A stretch of DNA of 52,003 nt from a virus (IMGVR_UViG_3300032163_000019:1-52003), one strand, 5' to 3'. Positions 23,129-38,969 are shown, counted from the first letter of the stretch. Numbers and translations: made by a program. Notes: generated by a model from the sequence alone, not told the origin.

Positions 23129-23396
23129 AAAACACAGCGCATACGAGGCTTGCGCAAATACCGCTATAGGGTTTGGCGTATCATGGGCGTTGACCTTTTA
23201 TGTGTTGCCATACTATTTAGGCGTGAGCGCCACGAAACGCACGGCTACCATGATAGTGATAATTTATACTATCGCATCGATAGTCCGTTCGTATTTAATC
23301 CGGCGCGCATTTAACTATGTGAACGGCCCGGCGGAATCCGGGAGTAATAAAAATCAGGAGGAAAAAGATGAACGCAGAAAAAACGAACTCTGCTGA
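23118..23396 (+). CDS. Small phage membrane protein (MQTKKHSAYEACANTAIGF...IRRAFN type); C-terminus reads through the cassette leader
   Basis: Two hydrophobic segments; this type usually accompanies phage methyltransferases. Confidence 0.7.
   Translation: MQTKKHSAYEACANTAIGFGVSWALTFYVLPYYLGVSATKRTATMIVIIYTIASIVRSYLIRRAFNYVNGPAESGSNKNQEEKDERRKNELC
23324..23367 (+). repeat. Cassette leader element, displaced copy
   Basis: CGGCCCGGCGGAATCCGGGAGTAATAAAAAT-CAGGAGG matches the copies at 32.3-35.9 kb. Confidence 0.9.
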
Positions 23397-24174
23397 ATTT
23401 GATTTCGGCGACGGGAAGGGTCAAGTCCCGGCCCACAAACACACTAATGGCGGAGGCTGGGTGGCCGATACCGCGTCCGTGGCCGACTCCGCATACGTCG
23501 GCCCGGATGCGCGGGTATTTGGCCGGGCGCGGATACGCGGGGAGGCCCGCGTGGATGGCCAATCGATAGTGAGCGAAAATGCCCGCGTGGGCGGCCAATC
23601 GATAGTGAGCGGAAATGCGCGGATAAGCGGGGAGGCCCGCGTGTATGGCCAATCGATAGTGAGCGGAAATGCCTGCGTGGATGGCCAATCGATAGTGAGC
23701 GGAAATGCCCGCGTGTATGGCCAATCGATAGTGAGCGGAAATGCTTGCGTGTATGGCCAATCGATAGTGAGCGGAAATGCCTGCGTGTATGGCCAATCGA
23801 TAGTGAGCGAAAATGCCCGCGTGGGCGGCCAATCGATAGTGAGCGAAAATGCACGGATAAGCGGGGCGGCCCGCGTGGGCGGCCAATCGATAGTGGGGGG
23901 AAATGCGTGGGTGGGCGGAAATGCGCGGATAAGCGGTAATGAAAATAAGGAGGAAACGTTGAACAAGAGAAAAAACATGAAAGAGGATAAAGAAGAGACG
24001 AAGGAATACATAACAGGGATAGAGGTGTTGTTGATAGCATGGCAAAACGCCAAAAAAGCAAGAGTAATGGCGCAAAATGCTCTAATCACCGCGGAAGCGG
24101 CCGCAAAAAAAGCATTTTGGCATGAGGTGGAGGCGGAAGGAAAGTGGAGGCGGGCAAACAACGATGCGGAGTGA
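23368..24174 (+). CDS. Hexapeptide-repeat (left-handed beta-helix) protein, paralog 1, fused to an Ala/Trp helical protein
   Basis: EFDFGDGKGQVPAHKHTNGGGWVADTA head and NARVYG/QSIVSG repeats; internal RBS AAGGAGG at 23947 before in-frame TTG 23959 and ATG 23977. Confidence 0.85.
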   Translation: MNAEKTNSAEFDFGDGKGQVPAHKHTNGGGWVADTASVADSAYVGPDARVFGRARIRGEARVDGQSIVSENARVGGQSIVSGNARISGEARVYGQSIVSGNACVDGQSIVSGNARVYGQSIVSGNACVYGQSIVSGNACVYGQSIVSENARVGGQSIVSENARISGAARVGGQSIVGGNAWVGGNARISGNENKEETLNKRKNMKEDKEETKEYITGIEVLLIAWQNAKKARVMAQNALITAEAAAKKAFWHEVEAEGKWRRANNDAE

Positions 24175-25768: not shown

Positions 25769-27644
25769 TATGTTTACGACTCATAACGCCCCCGCATGGG
25801 AGCCTCCGCGTGACTTGCCAAACTTCGCGCAAGCTAAAATAATATCCATCGATACGGAAACGTTTGACCCGTTTATAAAAGAAAAAGGTCCCGGTTATAT
25901 CCGGAAAGACGGGTATTTATTAGGCGTGTCTATCGCCACTGATGACGGATACAAACAGTATTTTCCCATGCGCCACAAACAGGGTAATAATATTGAGCCC
26001 GCGGTTATACGGCGATGGCTAAACGATCAGTTGTCCGGGGATCAACTAAAAGTGGGAGCGAACATCGCATATGACCTGGGGTGGTTACGCTCCGAGGGGG
26101 TTACGCTCCGAGGGCCGTATCATTGTACACACATATGTGAACGCTTGATTGATGAGAATGCCGATTGGCCTTCCCTTGATCGGCTCGCCGGAAAATATTT
26201 AGGGCTATCTAAAAACGATCATATAATTGCGGAATACGTGGCGAACCGGTTTGGCGGTAAAGCGGAACGCGCGAATTACGGATCGAAAATCCATGAGTGT
26301 CCCGCCGAAATTGTGGGGCTGTATGCGGAGGCGGACGCCCAATTACCGATTGATATTTACCGTAAACAAATGGCGGTTATTGAGGCGGACGCCTTGATGA
26401 CCGTGTACAAATTAGAAATGGGATTAATACCGCTAGTGCAGGATATGCAATGGCGTGGCATTCGCGTGGACATGGAAAAAGCCGCCATTACAAAAGTTAC
26501 CACTAAACAAAAGCTGGCGGAGGCTTACGACGTTTTGGAAAAATTAACGTGGCGCGGAATAAGCGCGGGATCGTCCGATGATTTGGCCAAAGTTTTTGCG
26601 GATGCGGGAGTCGCGGTTAAAAAAACGGAAACGGGACGTCCCGAATTTACGCAAGGGTTTTTGAAACGCTTACATCATCCTACCGCTGACGCTATCCTGG
26701 AGTTCAGACGACTCCAGAAATTTGATTCCACGTTCGTTGACGCGATTATTAATTATACCCTTGACGGGAGAATACATACCCAGCTTAATCAGGTAGGAGC
26801 GAAGACTCGCCGGTTTTCGTCCAGTAACCCTAACCTGCAGAATCTGCCGGCGCGTGACGATGAGTTTGGGCCTTTGATCCGTTCAATATTTTTACCGGAG
26901 GACGGAGAACAATTATACTCATTCGATTACTCTCAAATTGAGTATAGATATTTAGTCCACCTGGGGAACGACGCCGCGGCTAAAAAGTTAAAGGCCGATT
27001 ATACGACTAATAGCGCGACTGATATTCACCAGGTAGTGTCGGATATGTTGGGCGTGGATCGGAAACAGGGGAAGAGCTTGAACTTTGGAATCGTTTACGG
27101 CCTGGGTATCGGGGCCCTGGCCAACAGTTTAAACAGATCAGAGGAGGAGGCCCGTCTGTTGAAAGCGGAGTACAACGCCTGCTTCCCCTTTGCCTCCGCC
27201 CTTACGGATAAAGCCAAAGACAGGGTTAATAAAATCGGGTACATAAAAACTTTACTCGGAGGACGAAGGCGGTTTGACGCATGGGAACCGCGTCAATGGG
27301 GTTTACGGAGCGGGTGTACGCCGTTACAAAAGGAAGCCGCCACGGCGAAATGGGGGGACAACATCCAAAGAGCATATGGATACTCGGCGTTAAACGCGGC
27401 TGTACAAGGGAGCGCCGCCGATATTATAAAGCGAGCGATGCTGGACCTTTACACCAGCGGCAACAAAAATATCGCCGTGCCGTTAATGACAATCCATGAC
27501 GAACTATTATATAGTTTTCCGTTGACAGCGCGCGCGGAAAGCGATATAATTACCGTAAAAAATATCATGGAAACATGCGTCCAACTATCATTACCATTAG
27601 TAGTGGACATGGCGACGGGCCATGATTGGGGCACCCTGAAATAA
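25758..27644 (+). CDS. polA: Family A DNA polymerase with 3'-5' exonuclease
   Basis: DTET and ANIAYD exonuclease motifs; RFSSSNPNLQN, DYSQIE, KSLNFGIVYG, QGSAAD and IHDE. Confidence 0.95.
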   Translation: MQSNMFTTHNAPAWEPPRDLPNFAQAKIISIDTETFDPFIKEKGPGYIRKDGYLLGVSIATDDGYKQYFPMRHKQGNNIEPAVIRRWLNDQLSGDQLKVGANIAYDLGWLRSEGVTLRGPYHCTHICERLIDENADWPSLDRLAGKYLGLSKNDHIIAEYVANRFGGKAERANYGSKIHECPAEIVGLYAEADAQLPIDIYRKQMAVIEADALMTVYKLEMGLIPLVQDMQWRGIRVDMEKAAITKVTTKQKLAEAYDVLEKLTWRGISAGSSDDLAKVFADAGVAVKKTETGRPEFTQGFLKRLHHPTADAILEFRRLQKFDSTFVDAIINYTLDGRIHTQLNQVGAKTRRFSSSNPNLQNLPARDDEFGPLIRSIFLPEDGEQLYSFDYSQIEYRYLVHLGNDAAAKKLKADYTTNSATDIHQVVSDMLGVDRKQGKSLNFGIVYGLGIGALANSLNRSEEEARLLKAEYNACFPFASALTDKAKDRVNKIGYIKTLLGGRRRFDAWEPRQWGLRSGCTPLQKEAATAKWGDNIQRAYGYSALNAAVQGSAADIIKRAMLDLYTSGNKNIAVPLMTIHDELLYSFPLTARAESDIITVKNIMETCVQLSLPLVVDMATGHDWGTLK

Positions 27645-27665
27645 TTTATGCAAAGGAGATACACT

Positions 27666-28680: not shown

Positions 28681-28691
28681 GGAGATAAATA

Positions 28692-29086: not shown

Positions 29087-29861
29087 AAATGAAAATGAAA
29101 ATGAAAATGAAAATGAAAATGAAATGACGGAAGGCGAAAACAATAAACCGGTTTCCCCGCCTAAACGGGTAATAGCGAAACCGATTGAATACCGCCCAAA
29201 CGGAGCGCCTATATTTGCGCGTGACCCAGCGCGGCAAAACCGCGTCATTTGCGGCGCAAAAAAACACAAACAAAACGCTATTTGCCGCAGGTCCCCCGTT
29301 GTTGGCCGAGGCCGCTGTAAATTGCACGGGGGTAAAACATTGCAAGGAGCCGCGGTGCCGGGATACCGGCACGGGCGCCATAGCAAGTATCTCCCCGCCG
29401 GGTTGCTGGTAAAATATGACGTCGCGCAAAACGATCCCAACCTATTATCTTTGCGCGAAGAAATCGTTTTAGTGGACACGCGCTTAAACGATCTGCTCTC
29501 CAAACTACACATCGAGGGGGACGAACCGCTTTGGGGTAAGCTGGGTAAAGCGTGGGAAAACTTTACTTCCGCCACCACGGAGGATAAGGCCGCTTCGGCG
29601 AAAAACGACGTACAAAAAATTATTGATCTCGGTATTCAGGAGACGGGGACATGGCGAGAAATATATTCCGTGGTGGATCAACGCCGAAAACTGGTTGAAG
29701 GCGAAGTGAAACGCTTCCAGGTGATGGGGCAAATGATAACCGCCGAACGGTTAACGATGATCCTGGGTAAATTGGCGGAATCAATAAAAGCAAACGTCAC
29801 TGACCCGCGCCAAATGCGAACCGTTATTACCGATATTACGAATATTATTACCGGTAAATAA
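29076..29861 (+). CDS. Terminase small subunit-like protein with an HGGxSTG-type domain
   Basis: CGAK...CRR...GRCKLHGGKT...HGRHSKYLP; abuts the large terminase. Confidence 0.75.
   Translation: MENENENENENENENEMTEGENNKPVSPPKRVIAKPIEYRPNGAPIFARDPARQNRVICGAKKHKQNAICRRSPVVGRGRCKLHGGKTLQGAAVPGYRHGRHSKYLPAGLLVKYDVAQNDPNLLSLREEIVLVDTRLNDLLSKLHIEGDEPLWGKLGKAWENFTSATTEDKAASAKNDVQKIIDLGIQETGTWREIYSVVDQRRKLVEGEVKRFQVMGQMITAERLTMILGKLAESIKANVTDPRQMRTVITDITNIITGK
29079..29120 (+). repeat. GAAAAT x7 encoding (EN)7
   Basis: Read directly from the sequence. Confidence 0.95.
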
Positions 29862-31249
29862 TGGAACTCCTTATCGCGAATGACCCGGAAACGCTGGAAC
29901 AACGCGCGTTAAAACAATTCCTCCGCGATTTGGATACGACGCGAATCGATGACAATTTCCATACGTGGCTAAAAACCGTCACGCCATACTGGCATTGGGA
30001 TTGGGATCATCAAATATATCTGTATCCGTATCTGGAGAAAGTCGTTTCCGGCGATATCAAACGATTGATTATTTCGATGCCGCCGCGCCACGGGAAAACA
30101 GAAATGATAACCGTCCGCCTACCCATCTATCTCCTCGAAAGGTGGCCGTATAAAAAAGTTATACTAGGGGCGTACAACCAAACCGTCGCTAACAATTTTT
30201 CGCGCAAAAGTTTGAAGGTGGCGAAAAACCGGTTGAACCTTAGCCGCGATAAGCAGGCCGCCAGCGAATGGGAAACGGCGGAAAACGGCGGATACAGAGC
30301 CGTGGGCGTCGGTTCCGGAATTACCGGGTTTGGCGGAGACCTCATTTTAATTGACGATCCCGTCAAAAATATCGAAGAAGCTCGAAGCAGGCTGTACCAG
30401 GAAAAAACGTTCGACTGGTATAAAAACGATTTAGCCACGCGCCTAGAGCCCGACGGACGGATGATAATAATTATGACCCGCTGGAGTGACGGCGATCTCG
30501 CCGGACGAATTATGGCGAGCGAGGAAGGCCCCGATTTTACGGTGATAAATTTACCGGCATTAGCGGAAACAAACGATCCGTTAGGGCGCGTCGAGGGAAC
30601 GGCGCTTTGTCCCGCTCGATATGACGCCACTGATTTATGGCTTTTAAAACGACGGATGGGGCAAGATTTTTATGCGTTGTACCAAGGGTCTCCCGTCGCG
30701 GCGGAGGGAGCCATGTTCAAGGCGGACTGGTGGAATTACTATAAAGAGCTCCCGGATAAAACGCTGTGGAAGCGGCGGATCGTCTCCATGGATACCGCAT
30801 TTAAAACGGGGAAGGCGTCCGATTATACCGCCATTATTTGCGCCATAGAAACTACAAACGGTAAAATTTATATAACTAATGTCATCCGCGAAAAACTGGA
30901 ATTCCCGGAATTAAAACGAAGGCTGACTTCCATCATCCAGGAATTCCCCGTGGACGCATTGTTGATCGAAGACAAAGCGTCCGGGCAAAGCCTCGTCCAG
31001 GAGTTACAACGCGGTACGGGCCTTCCCGTTTTGCCCATCAAAGTTTCCGCCGATAAAATTAGCAGAGCGGCGGCCGCGGCGCCAACAATTGAAGCCGGTA
31101 ATATTTATATTAAAGACGGAGCCGATTGGGTGGCGGAATTTATTTTCGAGTTATCCAGATTTCCGGCGGGGGCGCATGACGATCAAACCGACGCTCTCAC
31201 GCAACTAATCAACTGGGTTCGAGGCGGATCGGGAGATATGATATGGTAG
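29861..31249 (+). CDS. terL: Terminase large subunit
   Basis: MPPRHGKT, ILIDDP, MTRW, LYQG, IEDKASG and HDDQTDA motifs. Confidence 0.95.
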   Translation: MELLIANDPETLEQRALKQFLRDLDTTRIDDNFHTWLKTVTPYWHWDWDHQIYLYPYLEKVVSGDIKRLIISMPPRHGKTEMITVRLPIYLLERWPYKKVILGAYNQTVANNFSRKSLKVAKNRLNLSRDKQAASEWETAENGGYRAVGVGSGITGFGGDLILIDDPVKNIEEARSRLYQEKTFDWYKNDLATRLEPDGRMIIIMTRWSDGDLAGRIMASEEGPDFTVINLPALAETNDPLGRVEGTALCPARYDATDLWLLKRRMGQDFYALYQGSPVAAEGAMFKADWWNYYKELPDKTLWKRRIVSMDTAFKTGKASDYTAIICAIETTNGKIYITNVIREKLEFPELKRRLTSIIQEFPVDALLIEDKASGQSLVQELQRGTGLPVLPIKVSADKISRAAAAAPTIEAGNIYIKDGADWVAEFIFELSRFPAGAHDDQTDALTQLINWVRGGSGDMIW

Positions 31250-31261
31250 CGTTATACCCAC

Positions 31262-31306
31262 ATTACGGGCGCGAGGATTTTGAAGGCGGAGAATTATCAT
31301 GGATAG
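31262..31306 (+). pseudogene. Probable 3' remnant of a HigB/RelE-type toxin gene
   Basis: Start-less frame ITGARILKAENYHG* overlaps the higA start and resembles HigB C-termini ending in D/N-Y-H. Confidence 0.5.
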
Positions 31307-31595
31307 TACGATGAATTACGTTTCCCCGGTTCCTATTCCACCAGGAGAAACGCTTAAAGATGTTTTGGCGGAAAAGAGGATGACCCAGACCGACCTGGCC
31401 ATGCGGATGGGCCGCCCGATAAAGACCATCAATGGCGTCATCAAGGGAGACACGCCGATCACCGCCACAACCGCCGTTCAACTGGAATACGCCTTAAACG
31501 TCCCTGCGTATTTCTGGTTGAACCTGGAATCGGCGTACCAGACGGCGCGGGCGCTCTACCTCCCCCCCCCTCCCATAGGATGCGTACCAATATAA
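31299..31595 (+). CDS. higA: HigA-family antitoxin / HTH-XRE protein (orphan)
   Basis: PPGETL...MTQTDLAMRMGRP.KTIN..IKG...IT..TA.QLE..L.VPA.FWLNLE..Y signature. Confidence 0.85.
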   Translation: MDSTMNYVSPVPIPPGETLKDVLAEKRMTQTDLAMRMGRPIKTINGVIKGDTPITATTAVQLEYALNVPAYFWLNLESAYQTARALYLPPPPIGCVPI

Positions 31596-31600
31596 TAGAT

Positions 31601-31616
31601 TGCAATATCCATGCCG
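31601..31616 (-). promoter_or_regulatory. Reverse-oriented sigma54-like -24/-12 element
   Basis: The minus strand reads CGGCATGGATATTGCA (GG-N10-GC). Confidence 0.5.
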
Positions 31617-31627
31617 GTCAAATAGCG

Positions 31628-31754
31628 TAACGTTTCGGCTTAACGTTTCGTTCGATGTTTTAACATTTTAGCGCATCGAAACGTTAAAATATTAGCCGCC
31701 CATAAACATAACCCTTTGATTTTATTGCAGTTTTACTTTGGTACGCGGTATGCA
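31628..31754 (+). promoter_or_regulatory. Sigma54-type promoter with IHF site and upstream repeats, heading the accessory island
   Basis: TGGTACGCGGTATGCA (GG-N10-GC, 31739-31754); TAACCCTTTGATT is the reverse IHF consensus (31709-31721); TAACGTTTCG x2 plus an inverted copy (31628-31686). Confidence 0.7.
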
Positions 31755-31802
31755 ATATTAAGGATTGTACGGCGGAATCAAACAAAAGAATGGGAGGGAA
31801 AA

Positions 31803-32069
31803 ATGAAAATGAAAATGACCTGCAGAACCAATAGCACCGGCAAGGTAACCCTCGCATACGCTACTGTGGACGGCCGCGTCGAGAGGAGTTTTTTTACTCC
31901 ACGAAACGGCGGCTACATCTGGGAGGAATTCCTTGGCCGTCCGGGAACGTTAGGCCAGCAGGTGGGTCCCCGGCTGGGGCATAGCGGCAATATGTTATCA
32001 TGTTCCCGGATCGAAAATCTCGCCGTTGTAATTCGCCGAGAATATCGCGCGCTAAGGAGGGGAAAATGA
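31803..32069 (+). CDS. Hypothetical protein, first gene of the island
   Basis: GGGAGG RBS; follows the sigma54 promoter. Confidence 0.7.
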   Translation: MKMKMTCRTNSTGKVTLAYATVDGRVERSFFTPRNGGYIWEEFLGRPGTLGQQVGPRLGHSGNMLSCSRIENLAVVIRREYRALRRGK

Positions 32070-32302
32070 ACACAAAAAACCTGTTGATAGCCACTATCGC
32101 GGCCAGCCATCCGGAAGGAGGGCGCGTCAAAATCGTATGCCAGCGGGATGGAGACCGGCTCCGCTGGTACGGGGTGGAGGGCGCCGATCTCCAGGATACC
32201 GAGGTATCCGTGGCATTGGCCGCTGGAATCGAAGCCGCCAAGCTGGCTTGCCACGCGGCGTGGGGCGCACCCTGCTGGGAATTGCGGCCAAACTGGAGAT
32301 AA
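32066..32302 (+). CDS. Hypothetical protein
   Basis: AAGGAGG RBS; ATGA overlap with the previous gene. Confidence 0.7.
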   Translation: MNTKNLLIATIAASHPEGGRVKIVCQRDGDRLRWYGVEGADLQDTEVSVALAAGIEAAKLACHAAWGAPCWELRPNWR

Positions 32303-32370
32303 TCAGGGCAAGTTGCCCACCCGGCCCGGCGATTTCCGGGAGTAATAAAAAACATAAAGAGGAGGAGGAT

Positions 32371-32628
32371 ATGGACACGACGACGAAAACGAACCGCGCC
32401 TATATAACGCGGGGACTGGGCAACGGTACTGTCTTTGACCAGCGCGTTTTTGGAACGCATAAAAACGCCGTGACGTATGTCGCCCATGTGCGGGCGGAAA
32501 CATGCCAATGCAATAGCGTGGTGGAGGGGCCGGATAGCATCGGCTGCCAACACGTGGGAGTGCACGCTCTGGTTTTCACGTCAAAAATATCCCGGAAACG
32601 GGGCGTGATTTTTGCGGGCGCGTTTTGA
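32371..32628 (+). CDS. Hypothetical cassette gene
   Basis: Leader plus GGAGGAGG RBS. Confidence 0.7.
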   Translation: MDTTTKTNRAYITRGLGNGTVFDQRVFGTHKNAVTYVAHVRAETCQCNSVVEGPDSIGCQHVGVHALVFTSKISRKRGVIFAGAF

Positions 32629-32696
32629 TTAAAACTATGAAAAGCGGGGAAAAAACATGTTAGACAAAAAACACAGTCTAAAAGGAAGGGAAAATC

Positions 32697-33158
32697 ATGG
32701 GATGGGAATCGATCACCGCAACATGCGGCCACAGATATAATGAGCAGATGTACGGGCCGCATAAAGGCCGGGATAGCCGGGTGAAGTGGCTCTCCGAGCG
32801 GATATGCCCTGACTGCCTGGCGGCGGAGCGGGCCAGTGAGGCCGCTAAAGCAGGCGAGCGGGCAAAATCGTCCGGCCTGCCGGCCCTCACCGGCTCCCCA
32901 AAACAAATCGTTTGGGCGGAGCAGATCCGCCAGACGGCCCTCCCGCGGATCGCCGAAGCCCTGGCCCAGGCGCGAAGCAGAATCAAAGCCGGACTCAATG
33001 CGGAGCAGGCCACGCGGGCGGACCGCTACTTGGAGATAATCGAGGGTATGGGCGGTAACGCCTCCGCCGTCTGGTGGATCGATCACCGCAATTACCTCCA
33101 GTCCGCCACGATCCAAGCGGACGCCCAAGCCGCCCTCAAAACGGAGCTGGGGTTATGA
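32697..33158 (+). CDS. Conserved phage protein with a Zn-binding N-terminus and LTGSxKQIxWAExIR / WWIDxR motifs
   Basis: CGH...CPDC; the motif recurs in phage early genes; function unknown. Confidence 0.8.
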   Translation: MGWESITATCGHRYNEQMYGPHKGRDSRVKWLSERICPDCLAAERASEAAKAGERAKSSGLPALTGSPKQIVWAEQIRQTALPRIAEALAQARSRIKAGLNAEQATRADRYLEIIEGMGGNASAVWWIDHRNYLQSATIQADAQAALKTELGL

Positions 33159-33213
33159 AGGGCATCCACACTACAAAAACACAAACAGGAACTGAAAAAC
33201 AAGGAGAAAAACC

Positions 33214-33411
33214 GTGGACACGGCAATAGATTGGGCGGCCTGGACGGCGGCCAAGGCGTTGAGGTTGAGGCGGGCGGCGGAACGGGCGGCGGGATCGGCG
33301 GCGGAGGCGATGGCGAGGGCGGAGCAGGCGGAACGGGCGGCGGAACGGGCGGCGGCCAGGGCGCGAGGGGAAATCGTGGACTGGGATTATTGGCAAAACG
33401 AGGAGGACTAG
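33214..33411 (+). CDS. Ala-rich helical protein (AAW family)
   Basis: AAGGAG RBS; AAERAA repeats. Confidence 0.65.
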   Translation: MDTAIDWAAWTAAKALRLRRAAERAAGSAAEAMARAEQAERAAERAAARARGEIVDWDYWQNEED

Positions 33412-33414
33412 ATT

Positions 33415-33657
33415 ATGGCCGACGATGATGAGGATACTAACTACAACGATAAGCTGAGTGTTTTGGACGACGCGGAAACAGCCTTTGCTACGGCCCTGGC
33501 CGCGGCGGAATTAGCGAACGCCCAGGAAGCGCCGCGTGAAATACAAATAGGACTGTGGCGAAACGCCCGCCAAGCCAGGAAACTGGCGGAGGATGCGGCA
33601 TGGAGTTGTTTTTTGGATGTGGAAAAAGCCGCGGGCCGATGCAACAACGGGCGGTAA
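33415..33657 (+). CDS. Acidic Ala-rich helical protein (AEDAAW family)
   Basis: GAGGAGG RBS. Confidence 0.7.
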   Translation: MADDDEDTNYNDKLSVLDDAETAFATALAAAELANAQEAPREIQIGLWRNARQARKLAEDAAWSCFLDVEKAAGRCNNGR

Positions 33658-33710
33658 TCGCTACCCGGCCCGGCGGAAACCGGGAGTAATAAAAAACATG
33701 AAAAGGAAAA

Positions 33711-33959
33711 GTGAGGAAGAAAGTGTTAGACAAAGAACACAACCTAAAAATGCTAAATAAAGCGGCATACGACGCGGAGGACGCCGCGGAAGACGCCAGA
33801 TTAGCCGCGGAAGACGCACTTGACAAACTAAACCTGGCCAGGGCCACGTGGGAGGAAGCGGACCAAGCCTCGTGGGTGGCGGAGCGCGCCGCATGGGCCG
33901 CCAGAATGGGAGTGGAAAAAGCGGAAGACGCGGCTGAGGACGGCGAAAACCGAGAGTAA
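33711..33959 (+). CDS. Ala/Glu-rich helical protein (AEDAA/AAW family)
   Basis: Follows a leader; its stop codon lies inside the next leader. Confidence 0.7.
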   Translation: MRKKVLDKEHNLKMLNKAAYDAEDAAEDARLAAEDALDKLNLARATWEEADQASWVAERAAWAARMGVEKAEDAAEDGENRE

Positions 33960-33967
33960 TGAAAAAC

Positions 33968-34201
33968 ATGAAAAAGAAAATAATAGTGGGAATTACCCCC
34001 GCCACCCCCACCGCTTGCTCTTGGTTAGGGTGGAAGGATGATTGCGTCATGGAGGATGATCGACGGGGTTCATATTGCCTGGCGTTTGGGGTCAGGCTGA
34101 AAAGGGAACGGGGCAAAACCTCCCGCCTCGCGGAGTGCGTCAAGGCGGAAACCGGGAGTAATAAAAATCATAAAAACAAGGAGGAAAACGATGGACACTG
34201 A
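33968..34201 (+). CDS. Cys-containing hypothetical cassette gene
   Basis: Follows the degenerate leader and reads through the next one. Confidence 0.55.
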   Translation: MKKKIIVGITPATPTACSWLGWKDDCVMEDDRRGSYCLAFGVRLKRERGKTSRLAECVKAETGSNKNHKNKEENDGH

Positions 34202-34733
34202 GTTTGATTTCGACGACGGGAAGGGTCCTATCCCGGCTCACAAACATTCCAACGGAGGAGGCTGGGTTGCGGACACCGCGTCCGTGGCCGACACAGCGCA
34301 CGTCGGCCCGGATGCCTGGGTAAGCGAAAATGCCTGGGTGGGCGATAATGCCCGCGTGACGGAAAATGCCCGCGTGGGCGGAACTGCCCGCGTGTATGGC
34401 CAATCGATAGTGAGCGGAAATGCCTGGGTGGGCGATAATGCCCGCGTGACGGAAAATGCCCGCGTGGGCGGAAATGCCTGGGTAAGCGAAAATGCCTGGG
34501 TGACGGAAAATGCCCGCGTGGGCGGAAATGCCTGGGTAAGCGAAAATGCCTGGGTGACGGAAAATGCCTGGGTGGGCGATAATGCCCGCGTGAGCGGAAA
34601 TGCCCGCGTGTATGGCCAGTCGATAGTGAGCGGAAATGCCCGCGTGTATGGCCAGTCGATAGTGAGCGGAAATGCGCGGATAAGCGGGGAGGCCCGCGTG
34701 TATGGAGATATGGAGGAAACGGGACGATTATGA
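34191..34733 (+). CDS. Hexapeptide-repeat (LbH) protein, paralog 2
   Basis: EFDFDDGKGPIPAHKHSNGGGWVADTA head plus NAWVxx/NARVxx repeats. Confidence 0.88.
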   Translation: MDTEFDFDDGKGPIPAHKHSNGGGWVADTASVADTAHVGPDAWVSENAWVGDNARVTENARVGGTARVYGQSIVSGNAWVGDNARVTENARVGGNAWVSENAWVTENARVGGNAWVSENAWVTENAWVGDNARVSGNARVYGQSIVSGNARVYGQSIVSGNARISGEARVYGDMEETGRL

Positions 34734-34755
34734 ACGGGGAGGAGGGGGAACGCGC

Positions 34756-35019
34756 ATGAAAAAAAGAACGGTAATAAAAATCATTACGGCGAGACAACGA
34801 CTCATCTGGAACATGGCGTGTGAAAAAGCCGAACACGCTATGCAAGAACTCCAAAAACTAATGACTATTATACACTGGGGAACTCGGCGTAAAATAATCA
34901 TCAGACCCCTGGGCCGAACGATTATTGATGATTTTTTGGAACGCGATCTCGCGCGGGACGATAATTATGCGGCCCTGTTCGCATTTATGATCCGCCAAAA
35001 CAGAGTTACAAGGGGATAA
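34756..35019 (+). CDS. Hypothetical protein
   Basis: GGAGG RBS. Confidence 0.6.
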   Translation: MKKRTVIKIITARQRLIWNMACEKAEHAMQELQKLMTIIHWGTRRKIIIRPLGRTIIDDFLERDLARDDNYAALFAFMIRQNRVTRG

Positions 35020-35021
35020 TT

Positions 35022-35237
35022 ATGTTTATGTATCACCAACACAGGGCGCTCTCCAGTAGAGTGCTCGCCGTACAATTATTGCATCCAGACGGGTATTGGA
35101 CGGCGTACATCGACGCCGTCGAAGGGCTTAATCACCGCGTCGAGGCCCACGAAGTAGCCAGGACGGGTACAAAACTTTCCATGACATTGGCTTGCGTGGT
35201 GTTCCCCGGTTTTGATCGGTCACTTTACCAAGGGTAA
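35022..35237 (+). CDS. Hypothetical protein
   Basis: WTAYIDAV.G..H..E...VA..GTKL motif; operon context. Confidence 0.65.
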   Translation: MFMYHQHRALSSRVLAVQLLHPDGYWTAYIDAVEGLNHRVEAHEVARTGTKLSMTLACVVFPGFDRSLYQG

Positions 35238-35305
35238 ATAAACGGTACAGCCCGGCCCAGCGGAAACCGGGAGTAATAAAAACCATGAAAACAAGGAGGA
35301 AAACG

Positions 35306-35503
35306 ATGGACACGAAGATTAAGATAAGTAAAGAAAAAATATTAGCGGCGCTAAACGACGCTCGCATGGCATATCGCGTGGCCAAGAGTGCCGCGGAAGC
35401 GGCGAAACAAGCGGCTTGGGAGGCGGAGGACGCTGCGTGGAAGGCGGAGGTAACAGTTTGGGAACAGGAGCGAACGCTCCTGGGAGCGGAGCGAAAATTA
35501 TGA
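35306..35503 (+). CDS. Ala-rich helical protein (AAWEAEDAAW family)
   Basis: Leader plus AAGGAGG RBS. Confidence 0.75.
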   Translation: MDTKIKISKEKILAALNDARMAYRVAKSAAEAAKQAAWEAEDAAWKAEVTVWEQERTLLGAERKL

Positions 35504-35540
35504 TAACGACGGCCCGGCGATATCCGGGAGTAATAAAAAT

Positions 35541-35903
35541 ATGGAGGACGGAAAAATGGAAATGAAACAGATAGTGCTGAACGCCATGGGCTGGCCCCAA
35601 TATGAGGGCACCCTGAACCTCTATCGAGCGGCGGCGGATAACCTCGACGCCGCGAATAGCGCATGTGGCGGATATCACCGGGTGGAGGCGGAGGAGGCGA
35701 AGGAGGCATACGATGACGTGGCGCGAGTGGCCAAGCTTTTCCCCGGCGCGGCGGCTTATGCGCAGGCAAGATCATTCCGCGCCGCCGCGAATGCGCTTAG
35801 ATCAGCGGCTGGGTTGCGGGCCATGGAGCGGATCGAGGCCGGAGAAGACCCAGCTTTGGTGGTAGTGGAGATGAAAAGGGAGTGGAGGGCGGCGGCGGAA
35901 TAG
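35541..35903 (+). CDS. Hypothetical cassette gene (start may be 35556)
   Basis: Follows a leader; FPGAAAY...AMERIEAGE motif. Confidence 0.7.
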   Translation: MEDGKMEMKQIVLNAMGWPQYEGTLNLYRAAADNLDAANSACGGYHRVEAEEAKEAYDDVARVAKLFPGAAAYAQARSFRAAANALRSAAGLRAMERIEAGEDPALVVVEMKREWRAAAE

Positions 35904-35974
35904 GGGCGGTAACGCCCACCCGGCCCGGCGGATTCCGGGAGTAAGAAAAAACATGAAAACAAGGAGGAAAAACC

Positions 35975-36490
35975 ATGAACACAGTTGAGTTTGATTTCGA
36001 GGACGGAAATGGGCCCGTCCCGGCCCACAGACACTGCAATGGCGGAGGCTGGGTGGCCGACTCCGCGTCCGTGGCCGCTACCGCATACGTCGGCCCGGAG
36101 GCTCGCGTCTACGGGAGGGCGGTAGTGCGCGATCACGCGAGCGTGGACGATCACGCGATCGTGTGCGATCAGGCGCTCGTGTGCGATCAGGTGCTCGTGT
36201 GCGATCAGGCGCTCGTGGGCGATCACGCGATCGTGCGCGGAAATGCGATCGTGGGCGGTCAGGCGCTCGTGCGCGAAAATGCGATCGTGTGCGATCAGGC
36301 GATCGTGGGCGATCACGCGATCGTGTGCGATCAGGCGGTAGTGCGCGATCACGCGATCGTGGGCGATCAGGCGCTCGTGTGCGATCAGGCGATCATGCGC
36401 GGCCGCGCGGTAGTAGGCGGGGACTCGCAATTGAGCGAGTGGGATATAGCCGGCGGCAACCACCCCTCGATCATGGGAGAAAATAAATGA
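35975..36490 (+). CDS. Hexapeptide-repeat (LbH) protein, paralog 3
   Basis: Same head domain; DHAIVC/DQALVC repeats. Confidence 0.88.
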   Translation: MNTVEFDFEDGNGPVPAHRHCNGGGWVADSASVAATAYVGPEARVYGRAVVRDHASVDDHAIVCDQALVCDQVLVCDQALVGDHAIVRGNAIVGGQALVRENAIVCDQAIVGDHAIVCDQAVVRDHAIVGDQALVCDQAIMRGRAVVGGDSQLSEWDIAGGNHPSIMGENK

Positions 36491-36491
36491 T

Positions 36492-36686
36492 ATCGCCGGA
36501 GCCGGTTTGCAATGGCGGCGCCCGCCCCTTGGGGACGTGGCTGAAAAGCGACGGCGCTTGCGGCCATCGTGAAAGCGGGCCGGTTCCGGTGATTTATAAA
36601 AAGGAAGACCGGCTGGCCGCCCTCTCACGCCGGTTTTCTTTGCGGGCCGGGCGGGTCCTCACCGTCCGGCCTTTTTAACCGCAAAG
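36492..36686 (+). ncRNA. Structured RNA candidate followed by an intrinsic terminator
   Basis: 19-bp stem 36492-36510/36575-36593 with G-U pairs; hairpin 36602-36640. Confidence 0.5.
36645..36676 (+). terminator. Rho-independent terminator
   Basis: GGCCGGGCGG-7 nt-CCGTCCGGCC-TTTTT. Confidence 0.7.
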
Positions 36687-36693
36687 GATCGGT

Positions 36694-36780
36694 ATGAAAA
36701 TCATAATTATCAGGATCAAATGTAGCGCCAAAGATTGGCGCCGGGCGTGGCTGGCCGCCGTGGCCCGGCTGAACAACTAA
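36694..36780 (+). CDS. 28-aa small ORF (not in the ORF track)
   Basis: AAAGGA RBS; MKIIIIRIKCSAKDWRRAWLAAVARLNN. Confidence 0.4.
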   Translation: MKIIIIRIKCSAKDWRRAWLAAVARLNN

Positions 36781-36801
36781 AACAAGGAGGAAAAACTATC
36801 T

Positions 36802-37122
36802 ATGAACACAACTGAATTTGATTTCAAGGATGGGCAAGGCCCAGTCCCGGCTCACAAACATCCCAGAGGGGGTGGGTGGGTAGCCAATACTGCATATGTG
36901 GCCGATACTGTGTATATCGGACCAGATGCGCGTGTTTTCGACAAGGCATTTGTATGCGGAAATGCGCGGATAAGCGGGGAGGCCCGCGTGTGCGGCCAAG
37001 CGGTAGTGAGCGGATATGCAATCGTGCTTGGGACTGCAATCGTTGGTGGGACCGCGGAAGTTGCTGAGAATGCCCGCGTGGGCGAAGACACCCGCATAGG
37101 CGACGGGAGGGTCATAGAATAG
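36802..37122 (+). CDS. Hexapeptide-repeat (LbH) protein, paralog 4
   Basis: EFDFKDGQGPVPAHKHPRGGGWVANTA head; shorter repeat tract. Confidence 0.88.
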   Translation: MNTTEFDFKDGQGPVPAHKHPRGGGWVANTAYVADTVYIGPDARVFDKAFVCGNARISGEARVCGQAVVSGYAIVLGTAIVGGTAEVAENARVGEDTRIGDGRVIE

Positions 37123-37163
37123 ACTATAACCACAAGTAAGAAAAATAAGAAAAAGGAAAAAGA

Positions 37164-37610
37164 ATGCCGGAAACTAGTACCTCGCTCGACGAGCGCTTGC
37201 GGCGCGCGAAAGAAAACGTTGTGGCAACAACGCACGCGGCCAGCGTCGCCAAGGAAACATTGATCCACTTAATGCGCGAAACGCAAAAAAAATACTGGAA
37301 GCTAAGGCTGGACGCAGGTTCAGCGTTCGCGGAAAAAAGTTACGAAGCGGCGCACGCGGCCATCGTCGCGCAAAAAATGGGGGAAAAGGATTGGGCGGCC
37401 GCGGAAGACGCCGCGCGTCAAGCGGCGTGGGATTTTGCGGAGGCCAAAGAAGAAGCTTGGTTAGCGATGGAAAAAGAAACGCTACAAATAGTTTGGGACA
37501 CGTGGGAAACAAACCACGAAACGGCAACCGCGCAAAACCATGACGACTCAGCCTACTGGCGCGACGCGGAAATCGAAAACAGGAAAACCGATGAACAAAA
37601 TGACAGATGA
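37164..37610 (+). CDS. Ala-rich helical protein (AEDAARQAAW family)
   Basis: AAGGA RBS; motif shared with other island genes. Confidence 0.7.
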   Translation: MPETSTSLDERLRRAKENVVATTHAASVAKETLIHLMRETQKKYWKLRLDAGSAFAEKSYEAAHAAIVAQKMGEKDWAAAEDAARQAAWDFAEAKEEAWLAMEKETLQIVWDTWETNHETATAQNHDDSAYWRDAEIENRKTDEQNDR

Positions 37611-37882
37611 TCGTTATGACAAACAGGAGTGATAAAAATAAGGAGGAGGGGAATACGGAGGCTTCATCTGTCGAGTCGGGAATAAAGGGGACAGCCTATG
37701 ATGAGCTTCGCGCCTTCGTTCTCTCCCTGACGGCGATCCAGTCTACAAGTATGATTGCCACTTGGATGGAGGAAATAGCCAGTAGCGAAAAAAAAGGACT
37801 GCATCTAAAATTTGAACACGGACACATTGTGTCCGAACCGGAAAACATAACGCATAACACAAACGAAAGGAACGTAAAATGA
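37607..37882 (+). CDS. Hypothetical protein
   Basis: ATGA overlaps at both ends. Confidence 0.5.
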   Translation: MIVMTNRSDKNKEEGNTEASSVESGIKGTAYDELRAFVLSLTAIQSTSMIATWMEEIASSEKKGLHLKFEHGHIVSEPENITHNTNERNVK

Positions 37883-38211
37883 AAACAGTATTATTTTTTC
37901 AAGGCGCCGTGGCGGGATTCCGGACGTGGCTGGAACGGAGCCGCGTCGTCGCGACGTTTGATATTCCTGGAGATTTTGAATGTCATTTTAGACACGCGGG
38001 TCCTTGCCCATTTCTGAAATGTGGGTCAAATATTAACGGGGGAAGATGTGTTATATTCAAGGAGGTAATTTTAATACCGCAAGACGTTAGCTCTGAAGAC
38101 GAGGACGCGGATGATGAAGATTACATCAATACATGGTACGCAAAAGACGCCCGATGTTCCCGCGCATTCGGATTACGCGGGGCCCAGGTTTTTTTGTCGG
38201 TAAAAAAATAA
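37879..38211 (+). CDS. Cys-containing hypothetical protein with an acidic patch
   Basis: AAGGA RBS. Confidence 0.6.
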   Translation: MKTVLFFQGAVAGFRTWLERSRVVATFDIPGDFECHFRHAGPCPFLKCGSNINGGRCVIFKEVILIPQDVSSEDEDADDEDYINTWYAKDARCSRAFGLRGAQVFLSVKK

Positions 38212-38633
38212 CTTATGCTACGCTACGCCATGTATGCTATAATTGTTAGCGCCGTTTTTACGCGGGCCAGCGCAAACTGGCTCCCTATACGCCCGTAAAC
38301 AGTCTCCGGTTGCGCGCCTTTTTATGGCTGGAAATGTCCCGCGAACGCCGATACTTTTACCCGCAATTCCCTTCCGCAAAAAATATTTTTTACGCCAAAA
38401 TTATCCTCGTTTTACCGCCCAGTTCAGCCCCAAAACTACCCCTCCGCCAGTAGCCGTTTGCCGTACCAAAACGTTTCAGTTTTTTTAGCGGAAACAAGGC
38501 GGTATAAAGGCGTTATGGAGGCGGTATTGGTGATATGGCGGGGGAGACAAAAGATGATAAAAGTGGTATAAAAATTAGGACAAATATTTTAACATATTTC
38601 AATAAGCGCCGAAACGTAACGGCTGGTGGGACT

Positions 38634-38785
38634 TGGTGATATGCTGGTGATATGGATTTTTCCTTTATACGTATAGCAAAAACAATGGGTTATGTACTAG
38701 CATATCACCATATCACCTATATCGCTACTTTTAAAAAAAAAAAAAAAAAACTTTTCCCGTACGCGTACGCATAGTGGTATCGCGT
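38634..38785. other. Origin-like element B: inverted iterons around an IHF-like site, then A18
   Basis: TGGTGATATG x2, TATACGTATA, AAACAATGGGTTA, CATATCACC x2, CGCTACTTTT plus 18 A. Confidence 0.6.
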
Positions 38786-38909
38786 TTTTTGCCAGTTTGG
38801 CGCCGACTTAGTTTTGTTTTTTTAACGGCGCCCCCGCAGCCTCCAAAAAGTACCGCGACCGCGGGGCGGTTCTCGCCGCTCCAAAAACTACCGCCGGTAA
38901 AAAAATCAG

Positions 38910-38939
38910 TTGACAACGAAATCGAAATTCGGCAATAAT
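38910..38939 (+). promoter_or_regulatory. Sigma70-like promoter for the head genes
   Basis: TTGACA-18 nt-AATAAT upstream of the portal. Confidence 0.55.
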
Positions 38940-38969
38940 GCGGAAAGTATAAATTTAAACTTATTATGG

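What the first reader, a model, noticed from the sequence alone, without database searches (positions are those of the whole stretch)
32306..37650. Integrase-free gene-cassette array built on a conserved hairpin-RBS leader (top candidate for a new system)
Seen: at least 8 copies (23324, 32315, 33663, 33941, 34144, 35251, 35510, 35914; remnants at about 36762, 37135, 37621) of CCCGG-N6-CCGGG-AGTAATAAAAA-(CATGAAAAC)-AAGGAGG sit just before start codons of small genes. The stem is conserved in most full copies while the loop varies (CGGAAT, CGATTT, CGGAAA, CGATAT, CGGATT). Three copies have an extra GGGC..GCCC-type hairpin upstream. Upstream ORFs stop in or read through the element, and cargo genes are often paralogous. 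Known analogues are the PeSL elements of T4-type phages and mycobacteriophage start-associated sequences, but this motif has no sigma70 boxes and no integron integrase is present. Inference: a portable expression and recombination unit (RNA processing, antitermination or translation element) that lets the phage shuffle, amplify and fuse host-interaction genes.
Basis: partly seen in the sequence, partly recalled or inferred. Interest (0 to 1): 0.8.

Follow-up and report, generated by a model that had tools for sequence, protein, structure and literature searches.

The report
Repeated hairpin leader before phage genes
A 52-kb phage carries eight copies of one short hairpin-plus-ribosome-site leader in front of unrelated small accessory genes; it resembles the repeated regulatory cassettes known from other phages, probably drives expression of these genes, and as a side effect lets them be duplicated, swapped and fused.

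Summary
The window is a complete 52,003-bp phage genome with terminal repeats. It holds eight strong copies of a leader, all on the + strand: 5-bp GC stem, 6-nt loop, AGTAATAAAAA, an A-rich spacer and a strong Shine-Dalgarno site. Seven lie at 32.3-36.0 kb, between the large terminase and portal genes. One lies at 23.3 kb. Weaker remnants follow.

The leader precedes at least four unrelated gene families. It is better conserved than third codon positions of the paralogous cargo. Leader similarity disagrees with cargo similarity, and two copies are cut at the same point of the 5' arm, where upstream ORFs run into them.

It is not a sigma70 promoter, an intrinsic terminator, an Rfam family or an integron attC site. 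No recombinase was found. No relative carrying it was found in the viral, metagenome, genome or phage collections.

Best reading (0.45): an intercistronic RNA leader that insulates, stabilises and translates each small gene. Its repeats also act as incidental crossover points. A promoter-type cassette of the PeSL kind is the main rival. I rate it a new variant of a known kind (PeSL, SAS/ESAS), of moderate interest. A dedicated "cassette system" is not shown.

The parts
23324..23367 (+). Leader copy c23324 (short form): hairpin 23327-23342, A-tail, AGGAGG, ATG at 23368. It is the only copy outside the array.
   Evidence: (59.6 bits). Homology to the array copies starts exactly at 23323/23324.
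23368..24174 (+). YdcK-type beta-solenoid gene (268 aa) with a K/E-rich linker and an A/E/W-rich coil tail. It is probably a fusion of two cassettes.
   Evidence: Pfam PF18836. Paralogue of 34191, 35975 and 36802. The tail is only weakly like 33415, 35306 and 37164 (E 0.013-0.18 in a 21-protein set).
23926..23982 (+). Degenerate leader read in frame inside 23368-24174, at the border between the solenoid and the coil.
   Evidence: Covariance-model hits of 16.5 and 14.7 bits. Local alignment score is 34, against a maximum of 31 in 1976 other windows. The margin is small, and the best other windows are real ribosome sites.
31299..31595 (+). HigA-family HTH antitoxin gene at the head of the accessory region. 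It is the only recognisable DNA-binding protein nearby.
   Evidence: TIGR02607 at 50.4 bits, cut-off 47.7. PF01381. phrog_1381.
32306..32370 (+). Leader copy c32315 (long form): extra GC hairpin, then ACCCGG, then the hairpin at 32325-32340, A-tail and SD. The downstream gene is 32371-32628 (85 aa, no family).
   Evidence: (58.1 bits).
32639..32696 (+). Partial leader plus the first codons of a 33723-type gene, sitting in front of 32697-33158 (phrog_16123).
   Evidence: 32639-32683 matches 33706-33749 at 82%. phrog_16123 at E 5.6e-29.
33187..33213 (+). 3' part of the leader only (A-rich tract plus AAGGAG), before the coil gene 33214-33411.
   Evidence: Alignment A1. Sequence read.
33648..33722 (+). 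Leader copy c33663 (long form). The stop codon of 33415-33657 lies in the loop of the extra hairpin. The downstream coil gene is 33723-33959.
   Evidence: (64.2 bits).
33939..33967 (+). Leader copy c33941, 5' arm lost (stem 3/5). Its TAA ends the upstream gene, and the ATG of 33968-34201 follows two bases after the A-tail.
   Evidence: (51.2 bits).
34141..34190 (+). Leader copy c34144, 5' arm lost (stem 3/5). It is translated as the tail of 33968-34201. The downstream YdcK-type gene is 34191-34733.
   Evidence: (53.6 bits). It is 52/54 identical to c35251 from the loop into codon 3.
35251..35305 (+). Leader copy c35251, before the coil gene 35306-35503.
   Evidence: (59.1 bits).
35510..35555 (+). 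Leader copy c35510 (short form), before 35556-35903 (115 aa, no family).
   Evidence: (52.2 bits).
35904..35974 (+). Leader copy c35914 (long form), before the YdcK-type gene 35975-36490.
   Evidence: (59.3 bits).
36608..36677 (+). Two hairpins each followed by a T-run. They look like intrinsic terminators inside the array.
   Evidence: Terminator-like site at 36652-36668. The second site (about 36608-36641) I read by eye.
36762..36801 (+). Remnant: the 5' arm and the SD part without the A-tail, before the short YdcK-type gene 36802-37122.
   Evidence: Sequence. Homology to other copies starts at 36779. A contig of run X2 stops matching at 36771.
37104..37163 (+). Remnant A-tail plus a weak SD, before the coil gene 37164-37610.
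   Evidence: Covariance model 16.4 bits, E 0.02.
37612..37646 (+). Remnant inside ORF 37607-37882.
   Evidence: 3 mismatches. Covariance model 14.5 bits, E 0.073.
27522..27550 (+). Perfect sigma70-type promoter (TTGACA-17-TATAAT). It is the nearest upstream candidate for transcribing the terminase genes and the array.
   Evidence: 12 of 12 positions.
38910..38939 (+). Sigma70-type promoter (TTGACA-18-AATAAT) after a 700-nt non-coding stretch. It marks the start of the portal/head operon and the right-hand limit of the array.
   Evidence: 11 of 12 positions. Sequence.

Best explanation
The element is a 40-70-nt intercistronic leader cassette, found only in this phage among the collections searched, that acts in the mRNA.

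**Proposed mechanism**
1. The accessory genes between the large terminase and portal genes are transcribed on the + strand. Transcription starts from ordinary sigma70-type promoters further upstream, the nearest being the perfect one at 27522.
2. In that long transcript a GC hairpin forms within about 10-20 nt after the stop codon of the preceding gene. The long form has two hairpins.
3. Directly behind the hairpin comes an invariant AGUAAUAAAAA, a structure-free A-rich tract and a strong Shine-Dalgarno site.
4. The hairpin closes off the upstream cistron. It acts as a barrier to exonucleases or as the edge of a processing site.
5. The open A-rich/SD part loads ribosomes whatever lies upstream. 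Each small gene is therefore an insulated, well-translated unit.

**Side effect.** The same 30-55 nt stand eight or more times in direct orientation within 4 kb, with one more copy 9 kb away. They therefore also serve as crossover and slippage points for the general recombination machinery. This duplicates, swaps, truncates and fuses the genes. No dedicated recombinase is involved.

**Shown:** the copies, their position relative to stops and starts, their conservation, the disagreement between leader and cargo, and the junctions.

**Inferred:** that the element acts as RNA, what the hairpin does, and that recombination between copies made the pattern.
For: - **Position.** In the 6 copies with an intact element, the upstream stop codon lies 9-22 nt before the inverted repeat. 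The start codon lies 14-27 nt after the A-tail, with an SD (GAGG to AAGGAGG) 2-8 nt before the start.
- **Open ribosome site.** In 7 of 8 folded copies the SD and start are unpaired in the minimum-energy fold. In the eighth, c35914, two SD bases pair in that fold but none in its centroid fold. c35251 also shows a weak helix upstream of its SD that its centroid lacks.
- **Not a transcription signal of the usual kinds.** No sigma70-like site and no + strand terminator-like site coincides with any of the 8 copies. Near-consensus sigma70 promoters stand at 27522 and 38910 and at 11036 (read).
- **Constraint.**
  - Mean pairwise identity is 95.5% in the A-tail and 78.8% in the 16-nt repeat, where the differences sit mostly in 4 loop positions.
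  - For the three YdcK paralogues that carry a copy, the 27-nt core is identical at 71 of 81 positions. Third codon positions of the conserved N-terminal domain are identical at 87 of 144 (Fisher p = 1.6e-5).
- **Portability.**
  - The element precedes YdcK-type solenoids (3 full copies plus a remnant), A/E/W-rich coil genes, and the unrelated 85-aa, 77-aa and 115-aa genes.
  - c34144 (before a solenoid gene) and c35251 (before a coil gene) are 52/54 identical from the loop into codon 3. They match at only 20/60 positions downstream and 10/40 upstream.
  - Homology of the 23.3-kb locus to the array begins exactly at the hairpin.
- **Junctions.** c33941 and c34144 both lose the first three bases of the 5' arm, and in both the upstream ORF runs into the element.
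- **Second study.** In run X2 a 945-nt contig matches only 33967-34150, that is, from the end of one copy to the start of the next. Another contig stops matching at 36771, in the remnant 5' arm.
Against: - **No RNA data.** Nothing here shows that the element acts as RNA.
- **No covariation.** The stem is either intact or broken, with no compensatory change, so an RNA hairpin cannot be told from a DNA inverted repeat.
- **Folding energy is unremarkable.** z-scores against shuffles run from -0.93 to +0.83.
- **The A-tail is too well conserved.** It is nearly invariant, which is more than a mere unstructured spacer needs. This points to sequence-specific recognition: a promoter element, a nuclease site or a protein site.
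- **The hairpin may be dispensable.** Two of 8 copies lack a hairpin, yet the genes behind them are intact.
- **Concerted evolution.** Gene conversion between copies could mimic purifying selection.
- **Thin breakpoint evidence.** It rests on three boundaries from short contigs laid at 80% likeness. Intergenic spacers are natural mosaic borders in any case.
Confidence: 0.45

Rival explanations
1. It is a promoter-type regulatory cassette of the PeSL kind. The invariant A-tail (TAATAAAA) would be a -10-like element, read by host RNA polymerase that a phage factor has redirected or that uses an unknown sigma. The stem-loop in the spacer/-35 position would act as an attenuator or factor site. Each accessory gene would then be its own transcription unit.
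For: - The A-tail is the best conserved part: 95.5% mean pairwise identity.
- The overall order (stem-loop, A/T-rich box, SD, start) is that described for PeSLs, where the stem-loop commonly lies between the -35 and -10 boxes or overlaps the -10 box (PMC2839356, passages).
- In an unrelated IMG/VR contig (L022) the YdcK-type gene is preceded by a repeated sigma70 promoter cassette at the equivalent place.
- Terminator-like hairpins inside the array (about 36608-36677) would need a restart for the genes at 36802-38211, which have only remnants.
Against: - 0 of 8 copies pass the sigma70 scan, and by eye no TTGACA-like hexamer lies 16-18 nt upstream. The real promoters of this genome are near-consensus.
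- No hexamer in the A-tail has both the A at -11 and the T at -7.
- In c23324 and c35510 the SD starts 2-3 nt after the A-tail. A start 6-8 nt behind a TAATAA box would therefore fall inside the SD.
- No sigma-like or RNA polymerase gene was hit in the proteins scanned. Many small ORFs have no family at all, so this is weak.
Confidence: 0.22
2. It is a DNA operator array, stoperator-like. The 5-N6-5 inverted repeat would be bound by a dimeric phage or host DNA-binding protein, for example the HigA-type HTH protein at 31299-31595. That protein would silence or time the accessory genes by blocking initiation or elongation.
For: - The perfect 5-bp half-sites with a fixed 6-bp spacer and a variable centre have the geometry of a dimer operator.
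- An HTH protein is encoded at the head of the region.
- For the ESAS repeats of Cluster K mycobacteriophages, the authors favoured DNA-binding sites because departures from the consensus did not keep RNA pairing (PMC3203893, passages).
Against: - The conserved CG at loop positions 1-2 and the invariant one-sided A-tail are asymmetric.
- The HTH protein is a HigA-family antitoxin that passes NCBIfam's equivalog cut-off. It is more likely cargo than a regulator.
- Two copies have lost one half-site.
- No lysogeny genes were found.
Confidence: 0.1
3. It has no function of its own. An ordinary strong ribosome site with a chance hairpin was copied along with its gene in serial duplications, and gene conversion between copies keeps them alike.
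For: - Four of the genes behind copies or remnants are paralogues.
- The copies are clustered.
- The folding energy is not exceptional.
- The element was not found in any other record searched.
Against: - The element stands before at least four unrelated gene families.
- Homology between copies ends within a few bases of the start codon.
- The core is more conserved than third codon positions of the paralogues (p = 1.6e-5).
- The loop varies while the stem and tail do not.
Confidence: 0.1
4. It is a dedicated site of a cassette-exchange system, integron-like but without a known integrase. The hairpin would be recognised by a specific phage enzyme that excises and inserts gene cassettes.
For: - Breakpoints fall in or at the hairpin.
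- Many array proteins have no family, so an unknown enzyme cannot be excluded.
Against: - No integrase, recombinase or transposase family was hit in 28 of 29 + strand ORFs of 180 aa or more.
- The site is 16 nt, perfect, and on the 5' side of each gene together with its ribosome site. This is unlike attC.
- The only joints in the contigs laid lie inside the internally repetitive YdcK gene, not at the element.
- Plain homologous recombination explains every pattern seen.
Confidence: 0.04

Closest known systems
PeSL (promoter-early stem-loop) cassettes of T4-type phages (PMC2839356 and PMC4122927; abstracts and passages read)
   Same: - Both are short composite motifs repeated in intergenic spacers of a hyperplastic region rich in small genes without known homologues.
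- Both hold a stem-loop and end in an SD and a start codon.
- In PeSLs, unrelated genes are flanked by the same motif, crossovers were mapped in or next to the stem-loop, and no dedicated recombinase is known.
   Different: - PeSLs contain strong sigma70-like -35/-10 boxes with an upstream AT-rich region, and their stem-loops terminate transcription. Here no sigma70 boxes are found, and no T-run follows the stem.
- The host virus differs: this is a 52-kb genome with a tape-measure gene, not a T4-type myovirus.
- Mini-circles and indels between close relatives are shown for PeSLs. They are not shown here.
Start-associated sequences and extended SAS (SAS/ESAS) of Cluster K mycobacteriophages (PMC3203893 passages; PMC12699233 passages)
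   Same: - Both are asymmetric conserved sequences, in one orientation, tied to the translation starts of a subset of non-structural genes of different families.
- In both, about half the copies are preceded by an inverted repeat with a variable centre.
- Both are private to one phage lineage.
- The function of SAS/ESAS was still untested in 2025.
   Different: - SAS is a 13-mer that contains the SD and lies 3-7 bp from the start. ESAS arms are 17 bp with a 4-13 bp spacer.
- Here the conserved core (5-bp arms, fixed 6-nt centre, 11-nt A-tail) lies 14-27 nt before the start, and the SD is a separate part.
- There is no sequence similarity.
Integron gene cassettes (attC sites plus IntI). Features recalled from general knowledge; the comparison with PeSL is made in PMC2839356.
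   Same: Both are arrays of small, co-oriented, often orphan genes separated by a repeated imperfect-palindrome site.
   Different: - No tyrosine recombinase was found.
- The repeat lies 5' of each gene and carries its ribosome site.
- It is 16 nt and perfect, not a 57-141-nt imperfect attC with extrahelical bases.
Intercistronic processing and stabiliser hairpins, and 5' stabilisers (T7 RNase III sites; SP82 and STAB-SD polypurine stabilisers of Gram-positive bacteria).
   Same: In both, a hairpin at the end of one cistron sits directly before the leader of the next in a long phage transcript. A strong SD near a 5' end protects the mRNA.
   Different: A 5-bp stem is far too short for RNase III. 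No cleavage data exist here. The host is unknown.

Membership tests
PeSL | Sigma70-like early promoter (-35 and -10 boxes, upstream AT-rich tract) inside the motif | tested here: not met
   0 of 8 copies coincide with a promoter-like site in the scan of 22500-39000. No TTGACA-like hexamer is seen by eye at the right spacing.
PeSL | Stable stem-loop within the motif | tested here: met
   The stem is a perfect 5 bp in 5 of 8 copies. A sixth copy pairs through a duplicated arm.
PeSL | SD and start codon at the 3' end; located in a region of variable small genes | tested here: met
   Seven of 8 copies lie at 32.3-36.0 kb, among genes mostly without a family.
PeSL | Indels and replacements between close relatives are bounded by the motif; mini-circles form | tested here: inconclusive
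   Only three block ends from short contigs of run X2 fall at motif edges. No relative could be fetched. Circles cannot be tested with contigs.
SAS/ESAS | 13-bp asymmetric consensus that contains the SD, 3-7 bp before the start codon | tested here: not met
   The conserved core ends 14-27 nt before the start in 7 copies and 2 nt before it in c33941. The SD is separate and variable. The consensus sequence is different (PMC3203893).
SAS/ESAS | One orientation, before non-structural genes of different families, private to the lineage | tested here: met
   Pattern scans of four collections gave only chance-level single hits.
Integron | IntI-type tyrosine recombinase next to the array | tested here: not met
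   No integrase or recombinase family was hit in 28 of 29 non-nested + strand ORFs of 180 aa or more. Minus-strand ORFs and the ORF that runs off the 3' end were not scanned.
Integron | attC: a long imperfect palindrome at the 3' end of each promoterless cassette | tested here: not met
   The repeat is a 16-nt perfect inverted repeat fused to the downstream ribosome site.
Intrinsic terminator | GC hairpin followed by a T-run on the transcribed strand | tested here: not met
   The hairpin is followed by AGTAATAAAAA. None of the 8 copies is among the terminator-like sites.
Any Rfam family | Match at the gathering score | tested here: not met
   0 matches in the whole window at gathering threshold. 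The best match at a copy is RF02619 at 21.1 bits against a gathering score of 115.

The most novel reading that the evidence does not exclude
The hairpin leader is the working part of an integrase-free gene-cassette economy. The hairpin would be a preferred break or template-switch point, perhaps for an unrecognised phage protein. "Leader plus gene" units would then be excised, captured and exchanged between co-infecting phages, each arriving with ready-made expression signals. That would be a phage counterpart of the integron, built on a 5' leader instead of a 3' attC.
Probability: 0.1. Interest if true: 0.75.

Novelty: new variant of a known kind. Interest (0 to 1): 0.45.

Why it matters
Accessory regions are where phages keep host-takeover and counter-defence genes. 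How these regions gain, lose and express such genes is only partly understood.

This genome offers a compact case: eight copies in 4 kb, with junctions caught in the act, including a probable gene fusion through a leader read in frame. It extends the PeSL and SAS/ESAS idea to an unrelated phage lineage and to a motif without a recognisable promoter.

If the hairpin plus A-tail proves to be a portable insulator and translation module, it would also be a useful part for building synthetic operons. The function of the comparable SAS/ESAS motifs was still untested in 2025 (PMC12699233). A tractable second example could help settle what such start-linked repeats do.

Tried and rejected
**Searches for relatives that carry the motif**
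- The 16-mer in viral contigs gave 10 single hits, none with the hairpin.
- Hairpin plus tail in metagenome contigs gave 1 hit, in a GC-rich 258-kb contig without a leader.
- Hairpin plus AGTAA in viral contigs gave 32 single hits.
- Two of those hits looked leader-like (L052, L042) and were followed up.
  - L052 lies in a 50-kb phage record with 63.7% GC.
  - That record has one copy only, and 2 of my 86 crude ORF translations match it. It is not a relative.
- Genome contigs gave 4 single hits in unrelated MAGs.
- The model R1 scores these control loci at 30 bits or less.

**Searches for relatives by protein or DNA**
- Phage DNA search: no match.
- Large terminase: 28-34% identity in IMG/VR and up to 37.6% in named phages.
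- Portal: none.
- Primase: up to 35.7%.
- YdcK-type gene: 11 loci, none with the leader.
- 32697 gene: 2 distant loci.
- 35556 gene: none.
- The tools say that records very near the window may be left out.

**Sequencing runs**
- No RNA holder was listed, so nothing can be said on expression.
- Run X2 leaves parts of the stretch without cover. I draw nothing from that.
- X1 may be the source sample.
- An X1 contig on 34144-34322 with many differences is most simply the window's own 23.3-kb paralogue. This is my inference.
- The two joints at 34322-34423 lie in the repetitive YdcK gene.

- Rfam: nothing.
- tRNA: none.

**Ideas considered and dropped**
- **Activator site at -41.5.** The -10 box would then fall on the SD.
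- **Archaeal TATA/BRE.** The start would fall behind the SD, and the genome has bacterial consensus promoters.
- **Terminator on the minus strand.** The T-run comes before the hairpin.

**Ideas noted but untested (both factor motifs are recalled)**
- The A-tail reads as four A-R-N triplets, the Hfq distal-face type.
- 5 of 8 loops hold GGA, as CsrA sites do.

**Literature**
- Searches for a like motif and for YdcK in phages found nothing relevant.
- Supplementary files of the papers were not opened.

Full report
**What the window is.**
- The window is a complete virus record of 52,003 bp with a 92-bp direct terminal repeat.
- The annotated genes all lie on the + strand.
- PHROG, Pfam and NCBIfam scans give this layout:

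| Region | Content |
|---|---|
| 1-10.4 kb | tape measure and tail genes |
| 11.3-27.6 kb | replication block: helicases, primase, RNA ligase, a helicase-methylase fusion, a C5-methylase, family A DNA polymerase |
| 29861-31249 | large terminase |
| 31299-31595 | HigA-family HTH antitoxin |
| up to about 38.2 kb | some twenty small genes |
| next 700 nt | non-coding stretch |
| 38910 onwards | portal, head protease, major head protein |

- The small-gene block has 55-58% G+C, against about 49% elsewhere.
- Near-consensus sigma70 promoters stand at 27522 (12 of 12 positions) and 38910 (11 of 12), and at 11036 (read). The host therefore uses ordinary bacterial promoters.

**Check of the observation.**
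- The inverted repeat CCCGG-N6-CCGGG occurs 5 times against 0.13 expected.
- Its 3' arm plus AGTAATAAAAA occurs 11 times with up to 3 mismatches, against 1.14 expected.
- With up to 1 mismatch all 7 matches are on the + strand, and the reversed control has none.
- A covariance model of the eight copies scores them at 51-64 bits. The next hit in the window is 16.5 bits.
- Three copies are a long form with an extra GC hairpin and a duplicated CCCGG.
- Two copies (33941, 34144) have lost the first three bases of the 5' arm.
- Remnants stand at 36762, about 37135 and about 37621. I add partial leaders at about 33187 and 32639.

**Anatomy.**
- In the six intact copies the upstream stop codon ends 9-22 nt before the repeat.
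- After the 11-nt A-tail come 14-27 nt of A-rich sequence, with an SD (up to AAGGAGG) 2-8 nt before the start.
- Folding gives the 5-bp stem. It leaves the SD and start unpaired in 7 of 8 copies. In c35914 two SD bases pair in the minimum-energy fold but not in the centroid.
- The folding energies are not better than shuffles: z runs from -0.93 to +0.83.
- Variation sits in four loop positions. The stem, the first two loop bases (CG) and the A-tail hardly vary: mean pairwise identity is 95.5% in the tail and 78.8% in the repeat.

**What it is not.**
- It is not a sigma70 promoter or an intrinsic terminator by the consensus scan: 0 of 8 copies.
- It is not an Rfam family.
- It is not an attC site next to an integrase. 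No recombinase family was hit in 28 of 29 non-nested + strand ORFs of 180 aa or more.

**Is it more than a co-duplicated upstream region?**
- *Cargo families.*
  - Four YdcK-type beta-solenoid genes are paralogues (23368, 34191, 35975, 36802).
  - There is a loose family of A/E/W-rich coil genes (33214, 33415, 33723, 35306, 37164).
  - Several genes have no similarity to the others (32371, 33968, 35556).
  - The element stands before members of all these groups.
- *Conservation against the paralogues.* For the three solenoid genes that carry a copy, the 27-nt core is identical at 71 of 81 positions. Third codon positions of their conserved N-terminal domain are identical at 87 of 144 (p = 1.6e-5).
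- *Leader against cargo.* The leader of the solenoid gene 34191 is 52/54 identical, from the loop into the third codon, to the leader of the unrelated coil gene 35306. Similarity drops to 20/60 and 10/40 on either side.
- *Remote copy.* Homology between the remote locus at 23.3 kb and the array begins exactly at the hairpin.
- *Conclusion.* The element is either under selection or kept alike by conversion, and it has moved independently of its cargo.

**Junctions.**
- In c33941 the upstream gene ends at the element's TAA.
- In c34144 the upstream gene reads through the whole element, which encodes its last residues.
- The 268-aa gene at 23368 has three parts. It begins with a solenoid domain. 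A K/E-rich linker follows, whose DNA resembles a degenerate leader read in frame: covariance model 16.5 and 14.7 bits, and alignment score 34 against at most 31 in 1976 other windows, a small margin. It ends in a coil tail.
- The adjacent pair 36802 plus 37164 looks like the unfused state of that gene.
- Contigs of a second study (X2) share single pieces at about 93-97% identity:
  - 31261-31554;
  - 33967-34150, a block running from the end of one copy to the start of the next, inside a 945-nt contig whose flanks do not fit;
  - 35927-36508.
- One X2 contig stops matching at 36771, in a remnant arm.
- These are three informative boundaries only. They come from short contigs laid at 80% likeness.

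**Mechanism.**
- I favour an RNA-level leader (0.45). The array would be read from upstream promoters. The hairpin right behind each stop codon closes the upstream cistron, and the open A-rich/SD tract loads ribosomes.
- Repeats in direct orientation then act as incidental crossover and slippage points.
- The main weakness is the near-invariant A-tail. It suggests a sequence-specific reader, so a PeSL-type promoter cassette that needs an unknown factor stays a serious rival (0.22). Against that rival, in two copies the SD begins 2-3 nt after the tail, too close for a start site between them.
- An operator reading (0.10), a neutral hitch-hiker (0.10) and a dedicated recombination site (0.04) follow.
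- The stem shows no compensatory change, so RNA and DNA readings cannot be separated by sequence alone.

**Comparison with what is known.**
- PeSLs of T4-type phages share the stem-loop, the SD and start, the setting among orphan genes, the crossovers in the stem-loop and the lack of a recombinase. They differ in having strong sigma70 promoters and working terminators (PMC2839356, PMC4122927).
- SAS/ESAS of Cluster K mycobacteriophages share the start-linked asymmetric motif with an upstream inverted repeat and a private distribution. Their function was still untested in 2025. Sequence, sizes and spacing differ (PMC3203893, PMC12699233).
- The element fails the defining promoter feature of PeSL and the sequence definition of SAS. 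I therefore file it as a new variant of this kind, not as a member of either family.

**Distribution.**
- Pattern scans of the viral, metagenome and genome collections gave only chance-level single hits.
- One lead (L052) proved to be unrelated.
- Protein searches found only distant relatives.

**Verdict.** The feature is real, non-random and probably functional. "New system" is not supported. Interest 0.45.

Noticed in passing
window 31299-31595: A HigA-family antitoxin (TIGR02607, 50.4 bits against a cut-off of 47.7) sits alone directly after the large terminase gene, with no HigB-like ORF beside it. It may be a counter-defence gene. A contig of run X2 shares just this gene (31261-31554).
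   Followed up: partly
window 23368-24174 (linker 23926-23982): This is a probable fusion of a YdcK-type solenoid cassette and a coil cassette. The join is a degenerate leader read in frame, which still holds AAGGAGG followed by TTG and ATG codons. An internal start is therefore possible.
   Followed up: partly
window 10450-11260 and 38220-38960: These are two long non-coding regions. They share a 90-nt repeat (10862-10952 against 38666-38756, 77%) and long A/T runs. Each ends in a near-consensus sigma70 promoter (11036 and 38910). They are probably the two main control regions of the genome.
   Followed up: no
window 27522-27550: A perfect TTGACA-17-TATAAT promoter lies inside the 3' end of the DNA polymerase gene. 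It faces the small genes, the terminase genes and the array.
   Followed up: no
window 1-283, 51086-51375, 51905-52003: There are repeats around the genome ends beyond the 92-bp terminal repeat. 1-283 matches 51093-51375 at 84%, and 51086-51184 is identical to 51905-52003. The ORF that runs off the 3' end appears to continue at the 5' end.
   Followed up: no
window 34300-34700, 36118-36420, 23537-23940: The YdcK-type genes are built of many diverged internal tandem units. Units of 18 nt are seen in the homologues of other contigs. Their copy number differs between the paralogues.
   Followed up: no
window 36487-36678: The 63-aa ORF overlaps two terminator-like hairpins and a weak sub-threshold Rfam hit (ar14, 26.4 bits against a gathering score of 58.8). 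It is probably not a gene. A contig of run X1 joins this piece to a different upstream sequence at 36479.
   Followed up: no
L022 3934-3979 and 6692-6737: An unrelated IMG/VR contig carries a repeated sigma70 promoter cassette. One copy lies directly before its YdcK-type gene. In that phage the same kind of gene has its own promoter.
   Followed up: no
window 18764-19708, 24144-24959, 20625-22970, 24956-25768: The replication block holds an RNA ligase, a metallophosphoesterase, a helicase-methyltransferase fusion and a C5 cytosine methylase. These could be RNA-repair and anti-restriction functions. The leader's arms contain CCGG.
   Followed up: no
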